Sequence record: PZ445511.1 | Length of the DNA stretch: 64,000 bases | DNA from: a phage | Reading direction: 5' to 3' (one strand) | Shown here: positions 37,167-63,210 of the stretch, in pieces | How the letters are laid out: each line of letters opens with the position of its first letter | Numbering within the stretch: position 1 is the first letter of the stretch | Made by a program: the position numbers and the translations under genes | The notes under the pieces: generated by a model | The model's input: the letters and a program-made list of their open reading frames with translations, nothing else | The model's database searches: none | Told to the model about the DNA's origin: nothing

Positions 37167-37934
37167 TTATTCAGCAGCCGCAGCTTTTGCATCCAGTTTA
37201 GCACGCTTAGCGGCACCATCATAGTCCTTAGCAACCAGACCACGACGAGACAGCATAGATTTAACACCGCGCTCAGACTTACCAGTTTTCTCAGCGATCT
37301 CAGCAACAGTCATGTTAGCCAGATCCAGACCTTCTAACAGATCTTCACGAGTTTTAGCACTTGAAGTTTCCTGTACCGGCATAGCAGCGATACGACCTTC
37401 ACGAAGCAGGCTCAGAGCTTTACCACGGATCTGCTTAATATTGCGACCGAAGTGAGCAGCGATAGCTTCAATAGTAGCACCAGCAACAACCTGATTAACG
37501 AAATCAGTTTCTTCGTCAGGAGTGAAGGAACGAACAGCAGCAGTTTTTTCAGTTGGCTTAACAGAAGCAGTCATTTCCAGACTCAGGATCTTACCCTGTA
37601 CCTGCTTAGCACCGAACTGACCACCAGCTACAGCAGCAGCGATTTCAGCGTAAGTATACTGACCAGCATGAGCGTTCAGGAAATCAACCAGTTCAGCTTC
37701 CTGTTCAGGAGTCCACGGGGATTTCTGTACTTCGTTAGCTTTCTGTACTTCGAAACCTTCTTTACGCAGCTTAGAGCCAACAGAGCGAGCGGTAACGTCT
37801 TTACCAGTCTCGGTAGCCAGTTCAGCAGCGATAGCAGCTACTTGTTCTTGAGAGATTACAGCAACACCCAGAGCAGTGGCTTTTGCTTTCAGAGACTCGG
37901 TTACACCTTCTACGTTCCAGTTCAGTTTAGACAT
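37167..37934 (-). CDS. Abundant early DNA-binding protein (T5 D5-like)
   Basis: 255 aa, Ala-rich, repeated helix-turn-helix-like segments, high-expression codon usage. Confidence 0.45.
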   Translation of the reverse strand: MSKLNWNVEGVTESLKAKATALGVAVISQEQVAAIAAELATETGKDVTARSVGSKLRKEGFEVQKANEVQKSPWTPEQEAELVDFLNAHAGQYTYAEIAAAVAGGQFGAKQVQGKILSLEMTASVKPTEKTAAVRSFTPDEETDFVNQVVAGATIEAIAAHFGRNIKQIRGKALSLLREGRIAAMPVQETSSAKTREDLLEGLDLANMTVAEIAEKTGKSERGVKSMLSRRGLVAKDYDGAAKRAKLDAKAAAAE

Positions 37935-38709
37935 TATTATTTTTCTCCAATAGTTCTTTAATCGACAGGATTTCTATCCCATTCGTTTCGGCTTTCTTAT
38001 AAGATGAGGAAGAACGTTTTGATTCATCCTCACAGATTAGGTATTTGACGTCTTTGGTAACGGACTTCTTGACCGTATATCCTAGACTTTCTAAATAGTT
38101 TGTTGCATCCGTTCGATTTGCAAAATCTTGCAAAGATCCGGTAATACAGATCGTGATTCCATTTGGCTGGGCAACTAAATCATCTGTAATGATGATGTCA
38201 GCTTTAGCACCTCGGATACCAGTTGAGAATTTCCACGGTAATTCAATAACATCCTTGCCTTGTGGGGAATTTAGCCAGGTTTTGTAATTTTCTCCAGCCT
38301 TGCCGTCAGCCTTCACATCGTGGAAGCTAGTGCAATTTTGGGACAGTTTCTTTGCTGCAACCTCTCCAATAAGAGGAATTCCTAAAGAACCGAGAACTGA
38401 ACCAAAGTCAATGTCTCCGCGAACCTTAGTATTTAACTCGCTAATCAATTTAGCGGCAACCTTGCTACCCACAGCTCCGACCAAATCTTCTTCGGTCAGG
38501 TAAAACAGTTCTGAGATCTTAGTCAGCTCCAGCTTCTCAATAGTTTTCGGGCCAAAGCCCTTTAACTTCATTTTTGTGCAGAAGTTCTCGATTAACTTAC
38601 TTGATTGCGCTGGACAGTTGGACTTATTCCTACAGAATAATTGCCCGTTGACAAGATCTAGCTTAGAACCACAAGAGGGACATTGTGTTGGAATTTCGAT
38701 TTTCATCAA
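37927..38709 (-). CDS. NAD-dependent DNA ligase, C-terminal part (Zn finger, HhH, BRCT)
   Basis: CPSCGSKL...C...C zinc finger, helix-hairpin-helix segments, BRCT-like C-terminus (ICITGSL...). Confidence 0.7.
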   Translation of the reverse strand: MMKIEIPTQCPSCGSKLDLVNGQLFCRNKSNCPAQSSKLIENFCTKMKLKGFGPKTIEKLELTKISELFYLTEEDLVGAVGSKVAAKLISELNTKVRGDIDFGSVLGSLGIPLIGEVAAKKLSQNCTSFHDVKADGKAGENYKTWLNSPQGKDVIELPWKFSTGIRGAKADIIITDDLVAQPNGITICITGSLQDFANRTDATNYLESLGYTVKKSVTKDVKYLICEDESKRSSSSYKKAETNGIEILSIKELLEKNNNV

Positions 38710-38908
38710 ATTTCTTCCTTATCAATTTATATAAATATTATAGCAAGTATTTAAGCATTTAGCAACTACAATTTTAACTAACTTTGCTTACCCTCGCCAT
38801 AACTTTCTATCCCTCAACTGAATGATAATAGTATATACCTAAGCGGCGAAAATGTCAATAACCACTTTATAATTCCGACATGGTAAATGGGTAGCAAAGG
38901 GTTACGAA

Positions 38909-39880
38909 TTAGTCGTATACTCGCTCTACTATACAAGGGATTACACCACCAGCACGAATCACTCGAATCTGGCAACCGATCTCTAAATCGAGAGCGTTAA
39001 TATAATCAACGTTATTAAGAGTTGCTTTAACGATTGTGGCATCATCAATAATCACCGGTTCGAAATAACCAACTGGAGTTACTTTACCAGAAGCCCCTAC
39101 TTGCCATTCAACTTTAACAAGTGTGGTAATTTCGCCTTCTTCATCCTCTTTAATAGCAAATGCACCACGAGGAAATTTATTAGTCCAACCTTCACGGAAG
39201 AATTTATTGTTGTCGTTAATGCGAACAACTTTACCATCTGTCGGAATCCATTTAAAGAAGGAACGAACATTAACAACTGTCAAGAAGTTCTCATTCTCTA
39301 GCCAAAGCATATCTTTTAAATAGGCTTCTGTAATACCGACTGTTTCCGCTGAACACTGGATACCATATGCAACGAAGATTAAACCACCTTCACCAATACG
39401 TTGGATGAAATCATCGCTGTCTTTCAGGTTAATAGCACCCGAAGCGTAGTTACGTTTGTTCTCTACTTCTTTAGTAATTAGAACTTCACCAGTGATTTGA
39501 GTTGGTACTTTTTGGGAAATAGTTTTGGGGATGTTCAGCATTTTAACATTATGCGTTACATCATTCCCTAGAATACCGTTACCACGAGTTAACGCTTGAA
39601 CAAACTCACCATTAATATATAATAGAGAAATCGCACAACCATCTAACTTATCAGTTTCAACCTGACCAAGTGGGTTGAATGGAGCTTTATCACCACGATC
39701 GTAATAGACTTTCTGCAAAGAATACATACGATACAAATGAGGGATATCACCTTTCGGTCCGATTTCTTCCTCTAGTGGGAATCTTTTAATCAGACGATCA
39801 TATTCTTCGTCAGAGATTAAAGACATACCTTGATAATATGCTTCTTGACAGCGTTTAATAAATTCTTTTACATTAGTCAT
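38909..39880 (-). CDS. NAD-dependent DNA ligase, N-terminal part (adenylation + OB domains)
   Basis: KxDG adenylation motif (KLDGCAISLLY), LigA-type Ia N-terminus (EEYDRLI). Confidence 0.75.
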   Translation of the reverse strand: MTNVKEFIKRCQEAYYQGMSLISDEEYDRLIKRFPLEEEIGPKGDIPHLYRMYSLQKVYYDRGDKAPFNPLGQVETDKLDGCAISLLYINGEFVQALTRGNGILGNDVTHNVKMLNIPKTISQKVPTQITGEVLITKEVENKRNYASGAINLKDSDDFIQRIGEGGLIFVAYGIQCSAETVGITEAYLKDMLWLENENFLTVVNVRSFFKWIPTDGKVVRINDNNKFFREGWTNKFPRGAFAIKEDEEGEITTLVKVEWQVGASGKVTPVGYFEPVIIDDATIVKATLNNVDYINALDLEIGCQIRVIRAGGVIPCIVERVYD

Positions 39881-45745: not shown

Positions 45746-45777
45746 CACAGAGAAAACCGAGCCAAAATGACTCGGTA
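45746..45777 (-). terminator. Rho-independent terminator after the 131-aa paralog
   Basis: ACCGAG-loop-CTCGGT hairpin followed by TTTTCTCT on the - strand. Confidence 0.55.
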
Positions 45778-45799: not shown

Positions 45800-46195
45800 T
45801 CAATCATCATTTAGACCTGGGACATAGATCCCAATGCGATTTAATTGACCTTTAGCTTCTTCGAGAATATCTTCGGTGTACTCCCAAATATCATCTTCTA
45901 CTTGCAAAAGATAAGGGGATTCACCAGTTTCGGGGTCACGTGTAATGGCTAAGCCACGTGGATGGAATATAGAGAAGTTGAGGGCAACAATCAAGCCCAT
46001 GCTGGACAATTCATTCCAGTCAGCTTCCCAACCATCATCTTCATCTTCGTCCACAAAGACACCTACACTAGGGTCTGTTACAGAAGTAAACGGAAATGTT
46101 ACACTAACCTTGTCAACCCCCAACCAACGTGCAAGGAGCCCCTCAGCACGCTCTACCAAACTAGGATCTATCTGACGCCAAAATACTTGTTCCAT
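45800..46195 (-). CDS. Hypothetical acidic protein (tandem paralog 1)
   Basis: 131 aa; shares W-ELxxMGL-xALN...TGE-P...PGL pattern with the adjacent 142-aa ORF. Confidence 0.5.
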   Translation of the reverse strand: MEQVFWRQIDPSLVERAEGLLARWLGVDKVSVTFPFTSVTDPSVGVFVDEDEDDGWEADWNELSSMGLIVALNFSIFHPRGLAITRDPETGESPYLLQVEDDIWEYTEDILEEAKGQLNRIGIYVPGLNDD

Positions 46196-46204
46196 TCTGC
46201 CTCC

Positions 46205-46633
46205 TTAAGCAGTTAAACCTGGGATCATATACCCGAAACGACGAAGTTTCTGAATCCCCTCATTTACTTCCTCGGGCGAATATGACCAGCCCTCACTTTC
46301 ATTTACCTGGAAAGCAGGAGCTTCACCAGTGCGATAATTTACAATAAGACGGTGATTTGCAGGCATAAACAGCTTATGGTTCAAGGCAAAAACCAGACCC
46401 ATTTCATCGAGTTCTTTCCAGTCTACAATCTCTTCTACTCCCTCCCCTAAATCCACGCTAACTCCAATACACGGAGCTTCCTCTAGTGGGCCTTTAAAAG
46501 ACAGGAAGATATCGTTATTCTCACACCAAATCTTAAGCAGATTGATGGTTTCATTGTACATACCATTAGGGAGAGAACGCCAGAAGTTGAGGAGCATAGG
46601 ATTTACCTCTTTCATGAAAATATTATTGAACAT
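46205..46633 (-). CDS. Hypothetical protein (tandem paralog 2)
   Basis: 142 aa; paralog of 45800-46195. Confidence 0.5.
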   Translation of the reverse strand: MFNNIFMKEVNPMLLNFWRSLPNGMYNETINLLKIWCENNDIFLSFKGPLEEAPCIGVSVDLGEGVEEIVDWKELDEMGLVFALNHKLFMPANHRLIVNYRTGEAPAFQVNESEGWSYSPEEVNEGIQKLRRFGYMIPGLTA

Positions 46634-46635
46634 GC

Positions 46636-47176
46636 TTATACCTTAAGTTTCTGAAGAGCCTTACACATTTCAAGATCTGGACTAAATTCCAGCATATAGC
46701 TTATAGCATTTAAATCTTGAAGGTTTATTCCAGTCCTGCCATTTACAATAACAGTAGGAAATTGGTACATCATAGCACCAGCATCATCTAGGACACACCA
46801 ATGCTTGAGCTTATATTTTTTCGACGAAACGTAAAACAGAATTACCCCGAGATAAACCACCTCCAGTAAAATCTGTTGTACCAAGGAAACGATCGATCAA
46901 ACCGAGCCCGGTCATAATCTGAACGTTCTCCATCTCATTTCGTACAGAAAACCATGAAGATACCCCAACAATCATTATTGGGGATGGCTTAAGAAAGTTC
47001 TGAAAAGCCTGGAGTAATGGCTTGTAAACCCAATCACCACCAAAGAATAGCTTCTCACTATCTGGAGCATGATGGTGAGAGATGCTCGAATTGAGCACCC
47101 CATCAATATCCAGGAAAATCACAGGAGTATTACTTATTTCCACCAGTAGCATCCCACGTCCAGACTTTAACTTCAT
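46636..47176 (-). pseudogene. HAD-superfamily phosphatase (nucleotidase-like) split by an apparent frameshift at an A6 run
   Basis: N-terminal ORF has HAD motif I (IFLDIDGVLN); downstream ORF in another frame has a DD motif (CVLDDAG); the frames join at GAAAAAATA (about 46814-46822). Confidence 0.45.
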
Positions 47177-47296
47177 CAGTAAAAGGAACTGGAACCTTCA
47201 ATTCACCCTTACCCCCACATAACAGATAGGAACAGAGAATAAATGGTAATCATACCGATTAGGTTGACAAACCGTACTAGACCTTTCCAGATACCC

Positions 47297-47479
47297 TTAA
47301 AAATCTTCTTCACCATATTCTCCCTCCTTAATAAGGAACTCTTTCCATTCTGCTGTATCCTCATAGATAACGCAGAAATCATCACTCTTCCATGAGAAGT
47401 CATCAGTAGCAAATTCAAAACGGTAGCACCAACTACCGTCTGGCCATACTAAAAGATCACACATGCTTTTCTGGGACAT
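47297..47479 (-). CDS. Small hypothetical protein, translationally coupled to the Sir2-like gene
   Basis: GGAGGG RBS and ATG embedded in the last codons of the Sir2-like ORF; 60 aa. Confidence 0.35.
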   Translation of the reverse strand: MSQKSMCDLLVWPDGSWCYRFEFATDDFSWKSDDFCVIYEDTAEWKEFLIKEGEYGEEDF

Positions 47480-48308
47480 AAATATTTCCCTCCATAAAAG
47501 CTTCAACTTGATCAATAAAGTGTTTATTACCAAAAACTTCGGCAGCTCCAGCACGCCATACAGTAACACCACGTTTCTCATATTCAAGCTGTTCATCATA
47601 GCGAACTTGAGGGTTAACAACCATCATCTTAGTTCCACGACATACAGCAGGGAATAGTTCCCAGTTGAAGTCAATCACTTGGTTGCTACAACCTACTACA
47701 ATAACCATATCATTGCTAGTAAGTGTATCAAACAGGTTAATCTGACCCATATACCACGGAGCCGTCTCACCAAAGAATGTTACGTTTGGTTTTACCCATT
47801 CGTAATCTTCAGGAACAATTGCAGTGTATCCAACATCTTCGATGATTTGATTGCGACCCCGACGATAGATCACCTCTTTCAAGTACCCGTGAGCGTGAAT
47901 GATTTCATCACGAGGGATACCAGCACGTTCCAGAAGGTCATCAACGTTAGTAGTGAAGTTCTTCACGCTATCCGCACCATAACGCTGGAACCATTCTGCA
48001 ATTCGCAGATGGGCAATGTTAGGCTCAACAGTCTGTAATTCCTGACGACGCATGTTGTAGAACTCATGAGTCTTGAGATACAGATCGTTACCCTCTTCAT
48101 CAATGCCAGGGAAACGAGCACTGAAGTAGTTAGGATCATCTTCACCACAGAAGCGACGGAAGCCAGCTTCAAAGTTAGGCAAGCTACATACTTCCTCTAG
48201 ATCGTACTCATCCCACAAAGATTTTCCACTAGCAGTATCAGTACGGAAAGCACGAACACCACTATCAACACTTAAACCAGCACCACTAACAATGATTAGT
48301 CTACGCAT
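47457..48308 (-). CDS. Sir2-like (sirtuin family) NAD-dependent protein
   Basis: GAGLSVDSGVRAFR, TTNVDDL, HG, PNVTFFGE sirtuin motifs; no CxxC...CxxC zinc module. Confidence 0.7.
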   Translation of the reverse strand: MRRLIIVSGAGLSVDSGVRAFRTDTASGKSLWDEYDLEEVCSLPNFEAGFRRFCGEDDPNYFSARFPGIDEEGNDLYLKTHEFYNMRRQELQTVEPNIAHLRIAEWFQRYGADSVKNFTTNVDDLLERAGIPRDEIIHAHGYLKEVIYRRGRNQIIEDVGYTAIVPEDYEWVKPNVTFFGETAPWYMGQINLFDTLTSNDMVIVVGCSNQVIDFNWELFPAVCRGTKMMVVNPQVRYDEQLEYEKRGVTVWRAGAAEVFGNKHFIDQVEAFMEGNIYVPEKHV

Positions 48309-48502
48309 TATACGATTCCTTGCTTGAATCCTTCGATGATATTTTGGAGCAGAATTGCTTCTTCTGGGCGAACCTTCTCTTGCTTAATAAGCATATCCAA
48401 ACCAGCAATACAGGTAGCTACTCCAGCATTATACCCAGCATTCCACTGCTCCATGAGCATATTTTCTAAATTACTTTTTAGATTCTGATTCAAGAAGTCC
48501 AT
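48308..48502 (-). CDS. Small hypothetical protein
   Basis: ORF with GGAGGAAAAA RBS; start placed at MDFLNQ. Confidence 0.3.
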   Translation of the reverse strand: MDFLNQNLKSNLENMLMEQWNAGYNAGVATCIAGLDMLIKQEKVRPEEAILLQNIIEGFKQGIV

Positions 48503-48674
48503 AAAGTTTTTCCTCCAATTCCATAATACGATTTTCGTAAGAAGCACGCAGCTTCTCGATGGACAAAGCACGAACTGTAACTTCATCTGAATTGATCGCT
48601 AGCTGAGCTAGATCTTCTGTTTCCATACGTCCGTTGTAAATTAAGCGATATTTAAGATGTTTTACGTTTTTCAT
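48471..48674 (-). CDS. Small hypothetical protein
   Basis: 67-aa ORF, coiled-coil-like. Confidence 0.3.
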   Translation of the reverse strand: MKNVKHLKYRLIYNGRMETEDLAQLAINSDEVTVRALSIEKLRASYENRIMELEEKLYGLLESESKK

Positions 48675-48683
48675 TCTTGTTCC

Positions 48684-48965
48684 TTAGTTCTGTACTGTAA
48701 ATTCATTCTTATCACAGTGAGCATAATAATACCCATACATACGATAAATTTTCACAGCCTTAGTAGACCCCTTCGATTCTTCATAATCAATCCAGAGCCA
48801 CTTGTCTTTACCTACATAATGTACCCGAAACTTCTTAACTTTCTTATCATTCCATGTTGCAACAACACGACGATAATCAAATCCGCCCAACCAATCTAGA
48901 GCCTTACGTTCTTCACTAGGCTCTCCAAGATGGGAAACATCTACTTTCGGAAGCAATTCGCTCAT
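48684..48965 (-). CDS. Hypothetical protein
   Basis: 93-aa ORF preceded by an early promoter (48975-49025). Confidence 0.4.
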   Translation of the reverse strand: MSELLPKVDVSHLGEPSEERKALDWLGGFDYRRVVATWNDKKVKKFRVHYVGKDKWLWIDYEESKGSTKAVKIYRMYGYYYAHCDKNEFTVQN

Positions 48966-49063
48966 AGCTTTCTCCTCTCAAATTTATAAATCAATTATAC
49001 ATAAGTTTTAGCTCGAAAGCAAATAAAATAAAAGCCAGGTCGACTAGCAACCTGGCTGATTCA

Positions 49064-50967: not shown

Positions 50968-50996
50968 ATTATAACTCATTCGAAGGCGGATGTCAA
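50968..50996 (-). promoter_or_regulatory. Consensus sigma70 promoter for nrdD
   Basis: TTGACA, 17 nt, TATAAT on the - strand; GAAGGAGGG RBS downstream. Confidence 0.6.
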
Positions 50997-51188
50997 CAAT
51001 ATTTTACCATAAAGTTCTGTAACATGATCTGAGTCAAAAAATTTTATTTGCCAACCTCTATTAAAAATAGTATAATCACACGCCCGTGTACGCGATATAA
51101 AATGATTATCTAGTACCATACATCTCCCAATAAAAGCAAGTAAATTTTTTATTTAAAAGCAATATCATGGGTTTATTTAAAATTATAC

Positions 51189-62946: not shown

Positions 62947-63210
62947 ATGATTTTTCATATTCTTATTGATGATGTGCGTAACCTTCATGGAATGGACATT
63001 ATAATTCGAACCCCCGAAGCCGCTGTTGAGTTTCTGAATAAAACCGATACCACAGGTCATTTCGTTTATATGGATAACGATCTGGCTGTAGATGATATGG
63101 AAGGTTATCAAATTCTTCGTTTACTCCTAGAATTTGGTCAGAGACCCAAGAAAGTGGTACTAGTAACCTCGAACCCTTCGTCTAAGAGACCATGCGTAAT
63201 GATCTCTTAG
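62947..63210 (+). CDS. Hypothetical protein
   Basis: 87-aa ORF after an early promoter. Confidence 0.4.
   Translation: MIFHILIDDVRNLHGMDIIIRTPEAAVEFLNKTDTTGHFVYMDNDLAVDDMEGYQILRLLLEFGQRPKKVVLVTSNPSSKRPCVMIS

What the first reader, a model, noticed from the sequence alone, without database searches (positions are those of the whole stretch)
47297..48308. Phage Sir2-like protein without a zinc module, coupled to a small downstream gene
The 283-aa protein has the sirtuin NAD-binding and catalytic motifs (GAGLSVDSGVRAFR, TTNVDDL, HG, PNVTFFGE) but no recognisable CxxC...CxxC zinc ribbon. Zinc-less Sir2 domains occur in NAD-consuming or ADP-ribosylating enzymes, including defence effectors. In a lytic phage that also encodes an NAD-dependent ligase, it could modify host proteins or manipulate NAD pools. 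The start codon of a 60-aa ORF is embedded in its last codons, suggesting a two-component unit.
Basis: partly seen in the sequence, partly recalled or inferred. Interest (0 to 1): 0.6.

Follow-up and report, generated by a model that had tools for sequence, protein, structure and literature searches.

The report
T5-like phage sirtuin lacking zinc ligands
This is the well-known "Sir2-like" gene of T5-like phages: a CobB/SIRT5-type NAD-dependent enzyme that has lost its zinc-binding cysteines. It is already annotated in many phage genomes (homologues in about 980), its function has never been tested, and the small gene behind it is not a dedicated partner.

Summary
A 283-aa Sir2 ORF lies on the minus strand at 47457-48308, with every quoted motif and no Cys4 zinc site. 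A 60-aa ORF starts 23 nt inside its 3' end.

The window is an Epseptimavirus (T5-like Salmonella phage). The protein is 100% identical to the annotated Sir2 of phage S147, and 979 phage records carry homologues.

Sequence and predicted fold place it next to E. coli CobB, Sir2Af1 and SIRT5, which are class III deacylases. No defence-type SIR2 model matches. NAD-binding and catalytic residues and the class III YxxR motif are invariant across the clade. The zinc ribbon survives as a cysteine-free beta-hairpin, and basal phage relatives still have CxxC...CxxC.

The small ORF is a real gene but belongs to a large stand-alone family. That family also occurs in a Sir2-less phage and in sequence contexts where no Sir2 was detected, is missing from some T5-likes, and recombines independently of Sir2.

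The more informative neighbours are a HAD "Swiss-army-knife" phosphatase here and an RNA ligase/cREC/kinase cluster in V5-like phages. This context was published in 2022 as a predicted RNA-repair role.

Function is untested. My best guess is a lysine deacylase (confidence 0.4). The finding is already known and of low-to-moderate interest.

The parts
47457..48308 (-). Sir2/sirtuin CDS, 283 aa, phage-specific zinc-ligand-less class-III-derived clade
   Evidence: ORF. Pfam SIR2 E=2e-21. PHROG 2162. Best PDB sequence hit is CobB 1s5p at E=5e-16. AF2 pLDDT 88, with CobB target-normalised TM-score 0.83. Protein 100% identical to phage S147.
47297..47479 (-). 60-aa acidic small ORF with conserved core D-x-x-V-W-P-D-G-S-W-C-Y-R...S-D-D-F/Y-x-V-I. 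It overlaps the Sir2 3' end by 23 nt.
   Evidence: PHROG 5116 E=4e-29. tblastn finds it in 461 phage records. Family alignment. 423 representative clusters. No Pfam hit and no significant fold match.
47488..47493 (-). Shine-Dalgarno-like GGAGGG, 8 nt upstream of the small ORF's ATG and inside the Sir2 coding sequence
   Evidence: Read directly from the sequence.
47209..47316 (-). 35-aa hydrophobic mini-ORF (PHROG 11166). It is 61 aa in relatives and is truncated here by an extra C in a C-run at 47208-47212.
46811..47176 (-). 5' part (121 aa) of the HAD_SAK_2 phosphatase gene. The rest is out of frame in ORF 46636..46884 because of a 1-nt insertion near 46815-46823. The gene is intact (171 aa) in relatives.
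   Evidence: Pfam HAD_SAK_2 E=6e-11 covering profile positions 1-99 of 139. The polluks orthologue matches full length at E=3.5e-17. Both halves hit the HAD HMM. Indel located.
46636..46884 (-). Out-of-frame 3' remainder of the HAD_SAK_2 gene
45800..46633 (-). Two tandem DUF7415 paralogues (131 and 142 aa) that end the gene block
   Evidence: Pfam DUF7415 E=3e-28 and 9e-37. PHROG 2502.
48308..48965 (-). Three small upstream ORFs of unknown function (PHROGs 5827, 5236, 7953). The last one overlaps the Sir2 ATG by 1 nt (TAATG).
49033..49057 (-). Intrinsic-terminator-like hairpin just after nrdD. It marks the upstream boundary of the block that contains Sir2.
   Evidence: pattern scan only.
45756..45776 (-). 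Intrinsic-terminator-like hairpin after the second DUF7415 gene, marking the downstream boundary of the block
   Evidence: pattern scan only.
62947..63210 (+). cREC_REC (cyclic-phosphate-processing receiver) gene. This family sits directly beside the sirtuin in V5-like phages. The window copy is C-terminally frameshifted (87 aa against 105 aa).
   Evidence: Pfam cREC_REC E=3e-12. Local HMM hit. Frameshift.
37930..39880 (-). NAD-dependent DNA ligase subunits B (37930-38706) and A (38912-39880), the other NAD-consuming enzyme in the window
   Evidence: tblastn with the DaisyDussoix ligase subunits gives 95% identity. Annotation seen.

Best explanation
The gene encodes a catalytically competent NAD+-dependent sirtuin. 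It descends from CobB/SIRT5-type (class III) bacterial sirtuins and has become zinc-independent: the ribbon is kept as a cysteine-free beta-hairpin.

The most likely mechanism is lysine deacylation. NAD+ binds the Rossmann domain through GAGxS...SG..FR, N121/D123, G206-x-S208 and N232. An acyl-lysine carbonyl attacks C1' of the nicotinamide ribose and releases nicotinamide. H140 then activates the ribose hydroxyl to resolve the intermediate into O-acyl-ADP-ribose plus free lysine. The invariant Y84-x-x-R87 pair would select negatively charged acyl groups such as succinyl, malonyl or glutaryl.

The protein would be made with the early gene block and act on host or phage proteins.

Shown here: fold, family placement, conservation of the catalytic and acyl-pocket residues, and loss of the zinc ligands. 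Inferred: that the enzyme is active, that it is a deacylase, its acyl preference and its targets. The adjacent 60-aa ORF is a separate, widely distributed small phage gene and is not required for this mechanism.
For: - Pfam SIR2 matches well above its cut-off.
- The best sequence hits among solved structures are E. coli CobB (5e-16), Sir2Af1/Af2 and SIRT5.
- The best fold hits are CobB (target-normalised TM-score 0.83), Sir2Af1 and SIRT5, using a confident model with pLDDT 88.
- Among 47 clade members sharing 56-87% identity with the window protein, these are invariant: G9, A10, G11, S13, S16, G17, F21, R22, Y84, R87, P96, N97, H100, N121, D123, H140, G141, F178, F179, E181, G206, S208 and N232.
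- Residues that line the acyl-lysine channel in CobB are identical or conservatively replaced: Y92->Y84, R95->R87, I131->V122, V187->V176, F190->F179, H147->H140 and A76->C41. Three of these CobB positions (Y92, I131, V187) plus A76 are the positions mutated in the acyl-selectivity-engineered CobB variants in PDB entries 6rxm/6rxq/6rxs (alignments; PDB titles).
- The clade is acidic like CobB, with median pI 5.05.
- It is a stand-alone protein with no sensor or partner domain and no match to defence-SIR2 models.
- An evolutionary series is visible. Basal phage homologues L065 and L066 keep CxxC...CxxC and the Q of the QNxD motif, and L065 also keeps VxP. The T5/V5 clade has lost all three.
Against: - No biochemical or genetic data exist for any member (literature searches).
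- It scores far below NCBIfam's CobB cut-offs (87 bits against 243).
- All four zinc ligands are lost. From general knowledge, these ligands are needed for activity in canonical sirtuins.
- The Q of the QNxD motif is an invariant T here.
- The V-x-P peptide-binding loop is replaced by the invariant V-I-(N/D)-F-N-W. The substrate cleft has therefore been remodelled.
- Gene context points elsewhere. In T5-likes the gene sits with a HAD_SAK_2 phosphatase. In V5/PVP-SE1-like phages it sits with an Rnl1-type RNA ligase, cREC, a nucleotide kinase, a metallophosphoesterase and a MazG-like gene, in two different arrangements.
Confidence: 0.4

Rival explanations
1. RNA-repair sirtuin (prediction of Iyer and co-authors, 2022). 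The enzyme uses NAD+ like KptA/Tpt1. An RNA 2'-phosphate oxygen attacks C1'' of NAD+, and the ribose 2''-OH then takes the phosphate. This leaves a 2'-OH on the RNA and releases ADP-ribose 1'',2''-cyclic phosphate. The neighbouring HAD, cREC, metallophosphoesterase or MazG enzymes would open cyclic ends or clear the ADP-ribose product. The pathway would restore tRNAs cut by host anticodon nucleases.
For: - The prediction is published in PMC9503650, section 3.7.3.
- I re-derived the context independently. In 12 of the fetched loci the sirtuin lies within about 2.3 kb of an Rnl1-type RNA ligase (Pfam RNA_lig_T4_1). cREC_REC is adjacent in 9 of these. A P-loop kinase, a metallophosphoesterase and a MazG-like gene also recur, in two gene orders.
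- In 33 T5-like loci the sirtuin is next to HAD_SAK_2, downstream in most and upstream in Erwinia phage KEY.
- The window also has a cREC gene at 62947-63210. The close relative polluks has a metallophosphoesterase related to the V5 one.
- The chemistry parallels the sirtuin mechanism, and Y84/R87/R88 could bind a phosphate (inference).
Against: - No sirtuin is known to act on RNA.
- The whole clade is strongly acidic (pI 4.6-6.05, net charge -5 to -19). That is unusual for an enzyme that must bind RNA.
- T5-like genomes have no detectable RNA ligase or polynucleotide kinase. A 2'-phosphate junction would therefore have no obvious source.
- Phapecoctavirus-like and Sugarlandvirus loci have none of the RNA ligase, kinase, HAD or cREC genes near the sirtuin. 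Phage 7-11-like loci have only a related metallophosphoesterase about 1.5 kb downstream.
- The hydrophobic acyl-lysine channel residues are conserved.
- In this window the HAD and cREC genes are frameshifted while the sirtuin is intact.
Confidence: 0.25
2. NAD+ glycohydrolase or protein ADP-ribosyltransferase used for host takeover or counter-defence. This is the first reader's leaning: the enzyme would manipulate NAD pools or modify host proteins.
For: - From general knowledge, zinc-ligand-less Sir2 domains are typical of NADase effectors.
- The substrate loop is remodelled.
- The phage lineage is rich in NAD functions. It has an NAD-dependent ligase in the window. A NadR-like plus PnuC pair, the type described as NARP3 in PMC13464706, lies in the close relative polluks just outside the window.
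Against: - No PADLOC defence-SIR2 model matches.
- The nearest relatives are deacylases, not ThsA, DSR or HerA-type SIR2.
- Draining NAD+ would starve the phage's own NAD-dependent ligase and work against its NAD-rebuilding genes (inference).
- There is no adjacent macrodomain as in the ADP-ribosylating SirTM systems.
Confidence: 0.15
3. Sir2 and the 60-aa protein form a dedicated two-component unit. The small acidic protein would be a regulator, inhibitor or specificity subunit of the sirtuin, co-translated through the 23-nt overlap.
For: - The start codon lies inside the Sir2 gene and has its own strong Shine-Dalgarno sequence.
- Adjacency is kept in four lineages whose sirtuins share only about 58-67% identity with the window protein: Epseptimavirus, Tequintavirus, Sugarlandvirus and phage 7-11-like.
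Against: - The family has 423 representative clusters, mostly stand-alone proteins of 47-60 aa.
- It is present in Erwinia phage Harbringer, whose whole genome has no Sir2.
- Three sampled metagenomic contexts (two of them contigs of only about 2-6 kb) have no detectable Sir2.
- It is absent from T5-like loci L040, L043, L044 and L046 and from all V5-like and Phapecoctavirus-like loci.
- Alleles are shuffled. A 97% Sir2 is paired with a 62% small ORF in L009/L010, and a 61% Sir2 with a 98% small ORF in L028/L041.
- Overlapping junctions are common in this block.
Confidence: 0.1
4. The protein is an inactive relic that has lost function along with its zinc site.
For: The zinc ligands are lost. 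Scores against the CobB equivalog models are low.
Against: Twenty-three NAD-binding, catalytic and pocket residues are invariant across members sharing 56-87% identity with the window protein, in several unrelated phage families and 979 records. The fold prediction is confident. This is the signature of strong purifying selection on an active site.
Confidence: 0.03

Closest known systems
E. coli/Salmonella CobB (class III bacterial sirtuin; PDB 1s5p, 6rxj)
   Same: It is the best sequence and fold match. Shared features are the GAGxS..SG..FR, PNxxH, NxD, HG and FGE motifs, the Y-x-x-R pair and a similar overall length. The ribbon region aligns with only 7 gap positions.
   Different: - About 26-27% identity, and far below the NCBIfam equivalog cut-offs.
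- No zinc cysteines.
- The Q of QNxD is T.
- V-Y-P is replaced by V-I-D-F-N-W.
- There is an invariant Cys41 where CobB has A76.
- A 28-aa, low-confidence insertion (about residues 50-78) is present in some clade members and absent in others.
- The gene is phage-encoded in an early gene block.
Human SIRT5 and Archaeoglobus Sir2Af1 (class III desuccinylases/demalonylases)
   Same: The fold matches (E about 1e-12 to 1e-14). The Y-x-x-R motif is shared. From established knowledge (Du et al. 2011), SIRT5 Y102/R105 bind the acyl carboxylate.
   Different: Those enzymes keep the Cys4 zinc site. Activity of the phage protein is untested.
Phage sirtuin clade described by Iyer and co-authors 2022 (PMC9503650) and the zinc-less Sir2/CobB of Vibrio schizoT4-like phages (Skliros 2016, PMC5107563)
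   Same: This gene is a member of that clade. The T5-like phage SP15 is the paper's example of the 'sirtuin + Swiss-army-knife HAD' neighbourhood. The 2016 paper reported absence of the zinc ligand for the Vibrio phage and KVP40 proteins, and it lists T5 as carrying the gene.
   Different: Nothing essential differs. I add four points: zinc-ligand loss across the whole clade with the hairpin retained, the basal members that still have CxxC...CxxC, the acyl-pocket comparison, and the analysis of the small ORF.
Defence-associated SIR2 NADases (ThsA, DSR1/2, SIR2-HerA, SIR2-APAZ/pAgo)
   Same: They share the Sir2 superfamily fold, use NAD+ as substrate and lack a Cys4 zinc ribbon.
   Different: No PADLOC model matches. 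There is no fused or adjacent sensor or partner. The ribbon scaffold and the class III acyl-pocket residues are retained. The gene is encoded by the phage, not by a host defence island.
KptA/Tpt1 RNA 2'-phosphotransferase
   Same: It is a possible functional analogue. Both use NAD+ as an ADP-ribose donor in a two-step mechanism and both are linked to RNA healing and sealing genes. For the sirtuin this link is seen in V5-like relatives.
   Different: The fold is unrelated. From general knowledge Tpt1 enzymes are basic, whereas this clade is acidic. No RNA ligase is found in T5-like genomes.

Membership tests
Sir2/sirtuin superfamily (Pfam PF02146) | Profile match above the curated gathering score | tested here: met
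   77.2 bits against a cut-off of 24, E=2e-21.
Sir2/sirtuin superfamily (Pfam PF02146) | Rossmann domain plus small domain fold that superposes on solved sirtuins | tested here: met
   AF2 pLDDT 88, pTM 0.87. Foldseek against CobB 1s5p gives E=1.5e-15 and a target-normalised TM-score of 0.83.
Sir2/sirtuin superfamily (Pfam PF02146) | NAD-binding GAGxS/FR motif, N and D of the (Q)NxD motif, and the catalytic His | tested here: met
   G9, A10, G11, S13, F21, R22, N121, D123 and H140 are invariant in 47 members and align to CobB.
Sir2/sirtuin superfamily (Pfam PF02146) | Structural Cys4 zinc site in the small domain | tested here: not met
   There are no Cys ligands between HG and FFGE in the window protein or in any of the 47 members. 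The hairpin is retained.
Class III sirtuins / CobB-type protein deacylase | Y-x-x-R acyl-carboxylate recognition motif | tested here: met
   Y84 and R87 are invariant and align to CobB Y92/R95.
Class III sirtuins / CobB-type protein deacylase | Score above the NCBIfam CobB model cut-offs | tested here: not met
   The best score is 86.7 bits against a cut-off of 243 (subfamily model NF001753). The CobB equivalog NF040867 scores 70.5 against 320.
Class III sirtuins / CobB-type protein deacylase | Canonical QNxD motif and V-x-P peptide-binding loop | tested here: not met
   The motif is T120-N-V-D, and the loop is V211-I-D-F-N-W.
Class III sirtuins / CobB-type protein deacylase | NAD+-dependent lysine deacylase activity | not testable with these tools
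   This needs enzyme assays. No published assay was found.
Defence-associated SIR2 NADase effectors | Match to a defence-system SIR2 profile | tested here: not met
   PADLOC returned no family at E<=0.01.
Defence-associated SIR2 NADase effectors | Fused or adjacent sensor or partner (SLOG, HerA, pAgo/APAZ, DSR C-terminal region, TIR) | tested here: not met
   It is a stand-alone 283-aa protein. Its neighbours are small unknown ORFs, HAD_SAK_2, DUF7415 genes and NrdD.
SirTM-type ADP-ribosylating sirtuin/macrodomain pairs | Adjacent macrodomain gene | tested here: not met
   No macrodomain hit appears among the neighbours in the window or in related loci.
Phage RNA-repair-linked sirtuin clade (Iyer et al. 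2022) | Conserved neighbourhood with RNA-end-processing genes (HAD_SAK, cREC, RNA ligase, kinase, phosphoesterase) | tested here: met
   HAD_SAK_2 lies two genes downstream. The same pairing occurs in 33 related loci. An Rnl/cREC/kinase cluster flanks V5-like homologues that share about 55-62% identity with the window protein.
Phage RNA-repair-linked sirtuin clade (Iyer et al. 2022) | NAD+-dependent removal of RNA 2'-phosphate | not testable with these tools
   This is a prediction only. Indirect points against it are the acidic pI and the lack of an RNA ligase in T5-like genomes.
Dedicated Sir2 + small-protein two-gene unit | The partner is found only, or nearly always, with the sirtuin | tested here: not met
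   The small-ORF family is present in the Sir2-less phage Harbringer and in sampled contexts where no Sir2 was detected. It is absent from many sirtuin loci.
Dedicated Sir2 + small-protein two-gene unit | Co-inheritance or co-variation of the two genes | tested here: not met
   Allele combinations are shuffled among T5-like phages.

The most novel reading that the evidence does not exclude
The phage sirtuin clade does not deacylate proteins. Instead it carries out sirtuin chemistry on a phosphate acceptor: NAD+-dependent removal of RNA 2'-phosphates, or processing of another phosphorylated RNA or nucleotide end. It would work with cREC, HAD_SAK and RNA ligase genes as a phage tRNA-repair pathway against host anticodon nucleases. 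This would be the first nucleic-acid-directed sirtuin. The idea is already published as a prediction (PMC9503650) but has not been tested.
Probability: 0.25. Interest if true: 0.7.

Novelty: already known. Interest (0 to 1): 0.27.

Why it matters
About 2% of sequenced phage records (979 of 50,697), from the T5-like, V5-like, Phapecoctavirus-like, 7-11-like, KVP40-like and jumbo groups, carry this sirtuin, yet nobody has measured what it does.

If it is a deacylase, it would be a phage tool for rewriting host lysine acylation during infection. If it acts on RNA ends, it would extend sirtuin chemistry to nucleic acids.

It is also a natural example of a sirtuin that appears to fold without zinc, which is useful for sirtuin structural biology. 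None of this is new as an observation: the gene, its lack of zinc ligands in phage versions and its gene context are all in the literature. The value lies in a clear, testable set of alternatives.

Tried and rejected
- **Defence-type SIR2 kinship:** the PADLOC scan found nothing, so this was rejected.
- **CobB orthology:** NCBIfam scores are far below the cut-offs. The protein is a relative, not an equivalog.
- **Function of the 60-aa ORF:** there were no Pfam, PADLOC or NCBIfam hits. The word-indexed homology search found only 5 close relatives. The AF2 model was mediocre (pLDDT 69), and Foldseek against PDB gave nothing below E=2.8. Larger family members showed only one HTH fusion and one tandem duplicate. 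Function remains unknown.
- **Alternative start of the small ORF at the second ATG (47464, ATGTGTGA overlap):** rejected. Only the first ATG has a Shine-Dalgarno sequence, and homologues have N-terminal extensions.
- **RNA ligase or polynucleotide kinase in the T5-like genome:** I searched the window plus the rest of polluks with HMMs built from V5-like phages and found none.
- **Neighbours in the Phapecoctavirus-like clade:** only DUF7275/DUF7277 and unknown proteins were found, so these are uninformative.
- **Experimental literature on a T5 or phage sirtuin:** six searches found none.
- **Promoter scan:** promoter-like sites were no more frequent than in shuffled sequence (13 against 17.7). 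Only the perfect consensus upstream of nrdD is worth noting.
Full report
**What is there**

The window is a T5-like siphophage of the genus Epseptimavirus. The region 47200-48700 is 99.7% identical to Salmonella phages polluks and S147. A 60-aa ORF at 47297..47479 starts 23 nt inside the 3' end of that gene. A GGAGGG at 47488-47493 sits 8 nt upstream of its ATG. The NAD-dependent DNA ligase subunits are also in the window, at 37930-38706 and 38912-39880.

**It is already annotated**

The protein is 100% identical to the annotated Sir2 of phage S147. tblastn finds homologues in 979 of 50,697 phage records, many of them labelled 'Sir2 (NAD-dependent deacetylase)' or similar. These records include T5-like, V5-like and roughly 150-kb Phapecoctavirus-like coliphages, phage 7-11, KVP40-like Vibrio phages and jumbo phages. 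The small ORF is annotated as a hypothetical protein in relatives and belongs to PHROG 5116.

**Family placement**

- Pfam SIR2 matches at 77 bits against a cut-off of 24.
- Among solved structures the best sequence hits are E. coli CobB (5e-16), the Archaeoglobus Sir2 homologues and SIRT5.
- An AlphaFold2 model built on a 47-member alignment is confident (pLDDT 88, pTM 0.87). Its best fold matches are CobB (target-normalised TM-score 0.83), Sir2Af1 and SIRT5.
- No defence-system SIR2 profile in PADLOC matches.
- NCBIfam CobB models are hit only far below their cut-offs, 87 bits against 243.

The protein is therefore a true sirtuin derived from class III. It is neither a CobB equivalog nor a defence-type NADase domain.

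**Active site and zinc module**

Across 47 members sharing 56-87% identity with the window protein, the following residues are invariant:
- the NAD-binding residues G9, A10, G11, S13, S16, G17, F21 and R22;
- P96, N97 and H100;
- N121 and D123;
- the catalytic H140 and G141;
- F178, F179 and E181;
- G206 and S208;
- N232;
- the class III pair Y84-x-x-R87.

The alignment to CobB maps the CobB acyl-channel residues as follows: A76 to C41, Y92 to Y84, R95 to R87, I131 to V122, H147 to H140, V187 to V176 and F190 to F179. That Y/R bind acidic acyl groups is established knowledge for SIRT5 and CobB; I did not test it here.

Between HG and FFGE there is no zinc ligand in any member. The segment nevertheless aligns to CobB's ribbon with only seven gap positions. 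It is predicted as a beta-hairpin spanning residues 141-158 with pLDDT 93-94.

More distant phage homologues show how this arose. L065 and L066 still have CxxC...CxxC and the Q of QNxD, and L065 also has V-x-P. The T5/V5 clade has lost the cysteines, changed Q to T, and replaced V-x-P with the invariant V-I-(N/D)-F-N-W. 'Zinc-less' is therefore correct for the ligands but wrong for the module, and the peptide-binding cleft has been remodelled.

Absence of the zinc ligand in phage Sir2/CobB proteins was already reported for Vibrio phages and KVP40. That paper lists T5 as another carrier (PMC5107563).

**The small ORF**

It is a real gene. Its core, D-x-x-V-W-P-D-G-S-W-C-Y-R...S-D-D-F/Y-x-V-I, is conserved down to about 43% identity. 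It sits directly after the sirtuin in Epseptimavirus, Tequintavirus, Sugarlandvirus and phage 7-11-like genomes.

It is not a dedicated partner, for five reasons:
- A profile search of 1.84 billion representative proteins finds 423 clusters. Most are stand-alone proteins of 47-60 aa, with one tandem duplicate and one HTH fusion.
- Erwinia phage Harbringer has the small gene but no sirtuin anywhere in its 85-kb genome.
- Three metagenomic contexts, two of them short contigs, show no sirtuin nearby.
- Four T5-like loci and all V5-like and Phapecoctavirus-like loci lack it.
- Allele combinations are shuffled. A 97%-identical Sir2 is paired with a 62% small ORF, and a 61% Sir2 with a 98% small ORF.

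Overlapping junctions are also common in this block, at 4 of 9. Structure prediction and fold search gave nothing usable for the small protein.

**Gene context**

The sirtuin lies in a nine-gene minus-strand block bounded by terminator-like hairpins at 49057-49033 and 45776-45756. The order is three small ORFs, Sir2, the 60-aa ORF, a membrane mini-ORF, a HAD_SAK_2 phosphatase and two DUF7415 paralogues.

Among the loci I fetched, including 61 from the viral contig collection:
- 33 T5-like loci pair the sirtuin with HAD_SAK_2. The HAD gene is upstream in Erwinia phage KEY.
- 12 V5/PVP-SE1-like loci place it within about 2.3 kb of an Rnl1-type RNA ligase. Most also have a cREC gene, a P-loop kinase, a metallophosphoesterase and a MazG-like gene, in two gene orders.
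- The Phapecoctavirus-like clade has unrelated neighbours.

The window also has a cREC gene at 62947-63210. No RNA ligase or polynucleotide kinase was detectable in the window or in the rest of the polluks genome.

This reproduces the published analysis of Iyer and co-authors. They use the T5-like phage SP15 as an example and predict a KptA-like role in RNA repair (PMC9503650). cREC and the Swiss-army-knife HAD are described in PMC7824862.

**Weighing the mechanisms**

No experiment on any member was found.

| Model | For | Against |
|---|---|---|
| Lysine deacylase | Family placement; invariant catalytic and acyl-channel residues; YxxR motif; CobB-like acidity, median pI 5.05 | Remodelled peptide loop; lost zinc ligands; gene context |
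| RNA-repair role | Recurrent and rearranged linkage to RNA healing and sealing genes | Acidity of the clade; no ligase in T5-likes; several clades without that context; no precedent for a sirtuin acting on RNA |
| NADase or ADP-ribosyltransferase | From general knowledge, zinc-ligand-less Sir2 domains typify NADase effectors | Nearest relatives are deacylases; the phage depends on NAD+ through its NAD-dependent ligase, and its relative polluks carries a NadR/PnuC pair of the NARP3 type |

I commit to the deacylase model at about 0.4. The RNA-end model is at about 0.25, and the NADase/ADP-ribosyltransferase model at about 0.15.

**Verdict**

The gene, its zinc-less character in phages and its context are already in the literature, so this is already known. 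Only its untested function keeps it moderately interesting.

Noticed in passing
window 46811-47176 and 46636-46884 (indel near 46815-46823): The HAD_SAK_2 phosphatase gene is split by a 1-nt insertion in a T-run within a small variable patch. It encodes 121 aa plus an out-of-frame remainder, against an intact 171 aa in polluks. None of 432 related phage records has this insertion.
   Followed up: partly
window 47208-47212: An extra C (C5 against C4) truncates the membrane mini-ORF between the small ORF and the HAD gene from 61 aa to 35 aa. This too is unique among database relatives.
   Followed up: partly
window 62947-63210 (patch 63176-63184): A cREC_REC (cyclic-phosphate-processing receiver) gene lies about 15 kb from the sirtuin. 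It has a net -1 frameshift in a diverged patch (87 aa against 105 aa), unique among 436 related records. Comparison of the whole window with polluks shows that HAD_SAK, its upstream mini-ORF and cREC are the only annotated genes with broken frames. Both genes carrying 'RNA-end processing' domains are therefore disrupted while the sirtuin is intact. I cannot tell whether this is real co-loss or sequencing error.
   Followed up: partly
loci L009, L010, L028, L041 compared with the window: There is mosaicism at the Sir2/small-ORF boundary among T5-like phages. Epseptimavirus-type Sir2 is paired with a Tequintavirus-type small ORF, and the reverse also occurs. Sir2 itself is unusually divergent between the two genera (about 61% identity), while the neighbouring HAD protein is about 90% identical.
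   Followed up: partly
polluks MT074456 81278-83012 (L071 3279-5013), about 3 kb beyond the window's right end: Close relatives carry a NadR-like NMN adenylyltransferase plus a PnuC-like nicotinamide-riboside transporter in the tRNA region. This is the two-gene type described as the NARP3 NAD+-restoring pathway (PMC13464706). The lineage therefore combines an NAD-dependent ligase, a sirtuin and NAD+ rebuilding genes.
   Followed up: no
window 50968-50996 (minus strand): A perfect sigma-70 consensus promoter (TTGACA, 17 nt, TATAAT; 12 of 12) lies upstream of nrdD. A near-perfect divergent one (11 of 12) is at 51048-51076 on the plus strand, facing the phoH/nrdAB genes.
   Followed up: no
window 45800-46633: Two tandem paralogues of a DUF7415 protein (131 and 142 aa) follow the HAD gene. 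They are conserved next to the sirtuin block in T5-like, Sugarlandvirus and related loci. Their function is unknown.
   Followed up: no
proteins P0140 and P0206; loci L051, L054, L075-L077: The small-ORF domain also occurs as a tandem duplicate (P0140) and fused behind an Xre-type HTH (P0206). In phage 7-11-like loci and in some metagenomic loci, a metallophosphoesterase related to the V5-like one lies about 1-1.6 kb downstream of it, with or without a sirtuin.
   Followed up: partly
SP15 locus L002 4134-4640 (NC_048627 gp118): In RefSeq the HAD_SAK_2 gene of phage SP15, and of some other T5-like phages, is mislabelled 'Sir2 (NAD-dependent deacetylase)'. PHROG 18062 carries the same label for a HAD fragment. 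This is an annotation error that propagates.
   Followed up: partly
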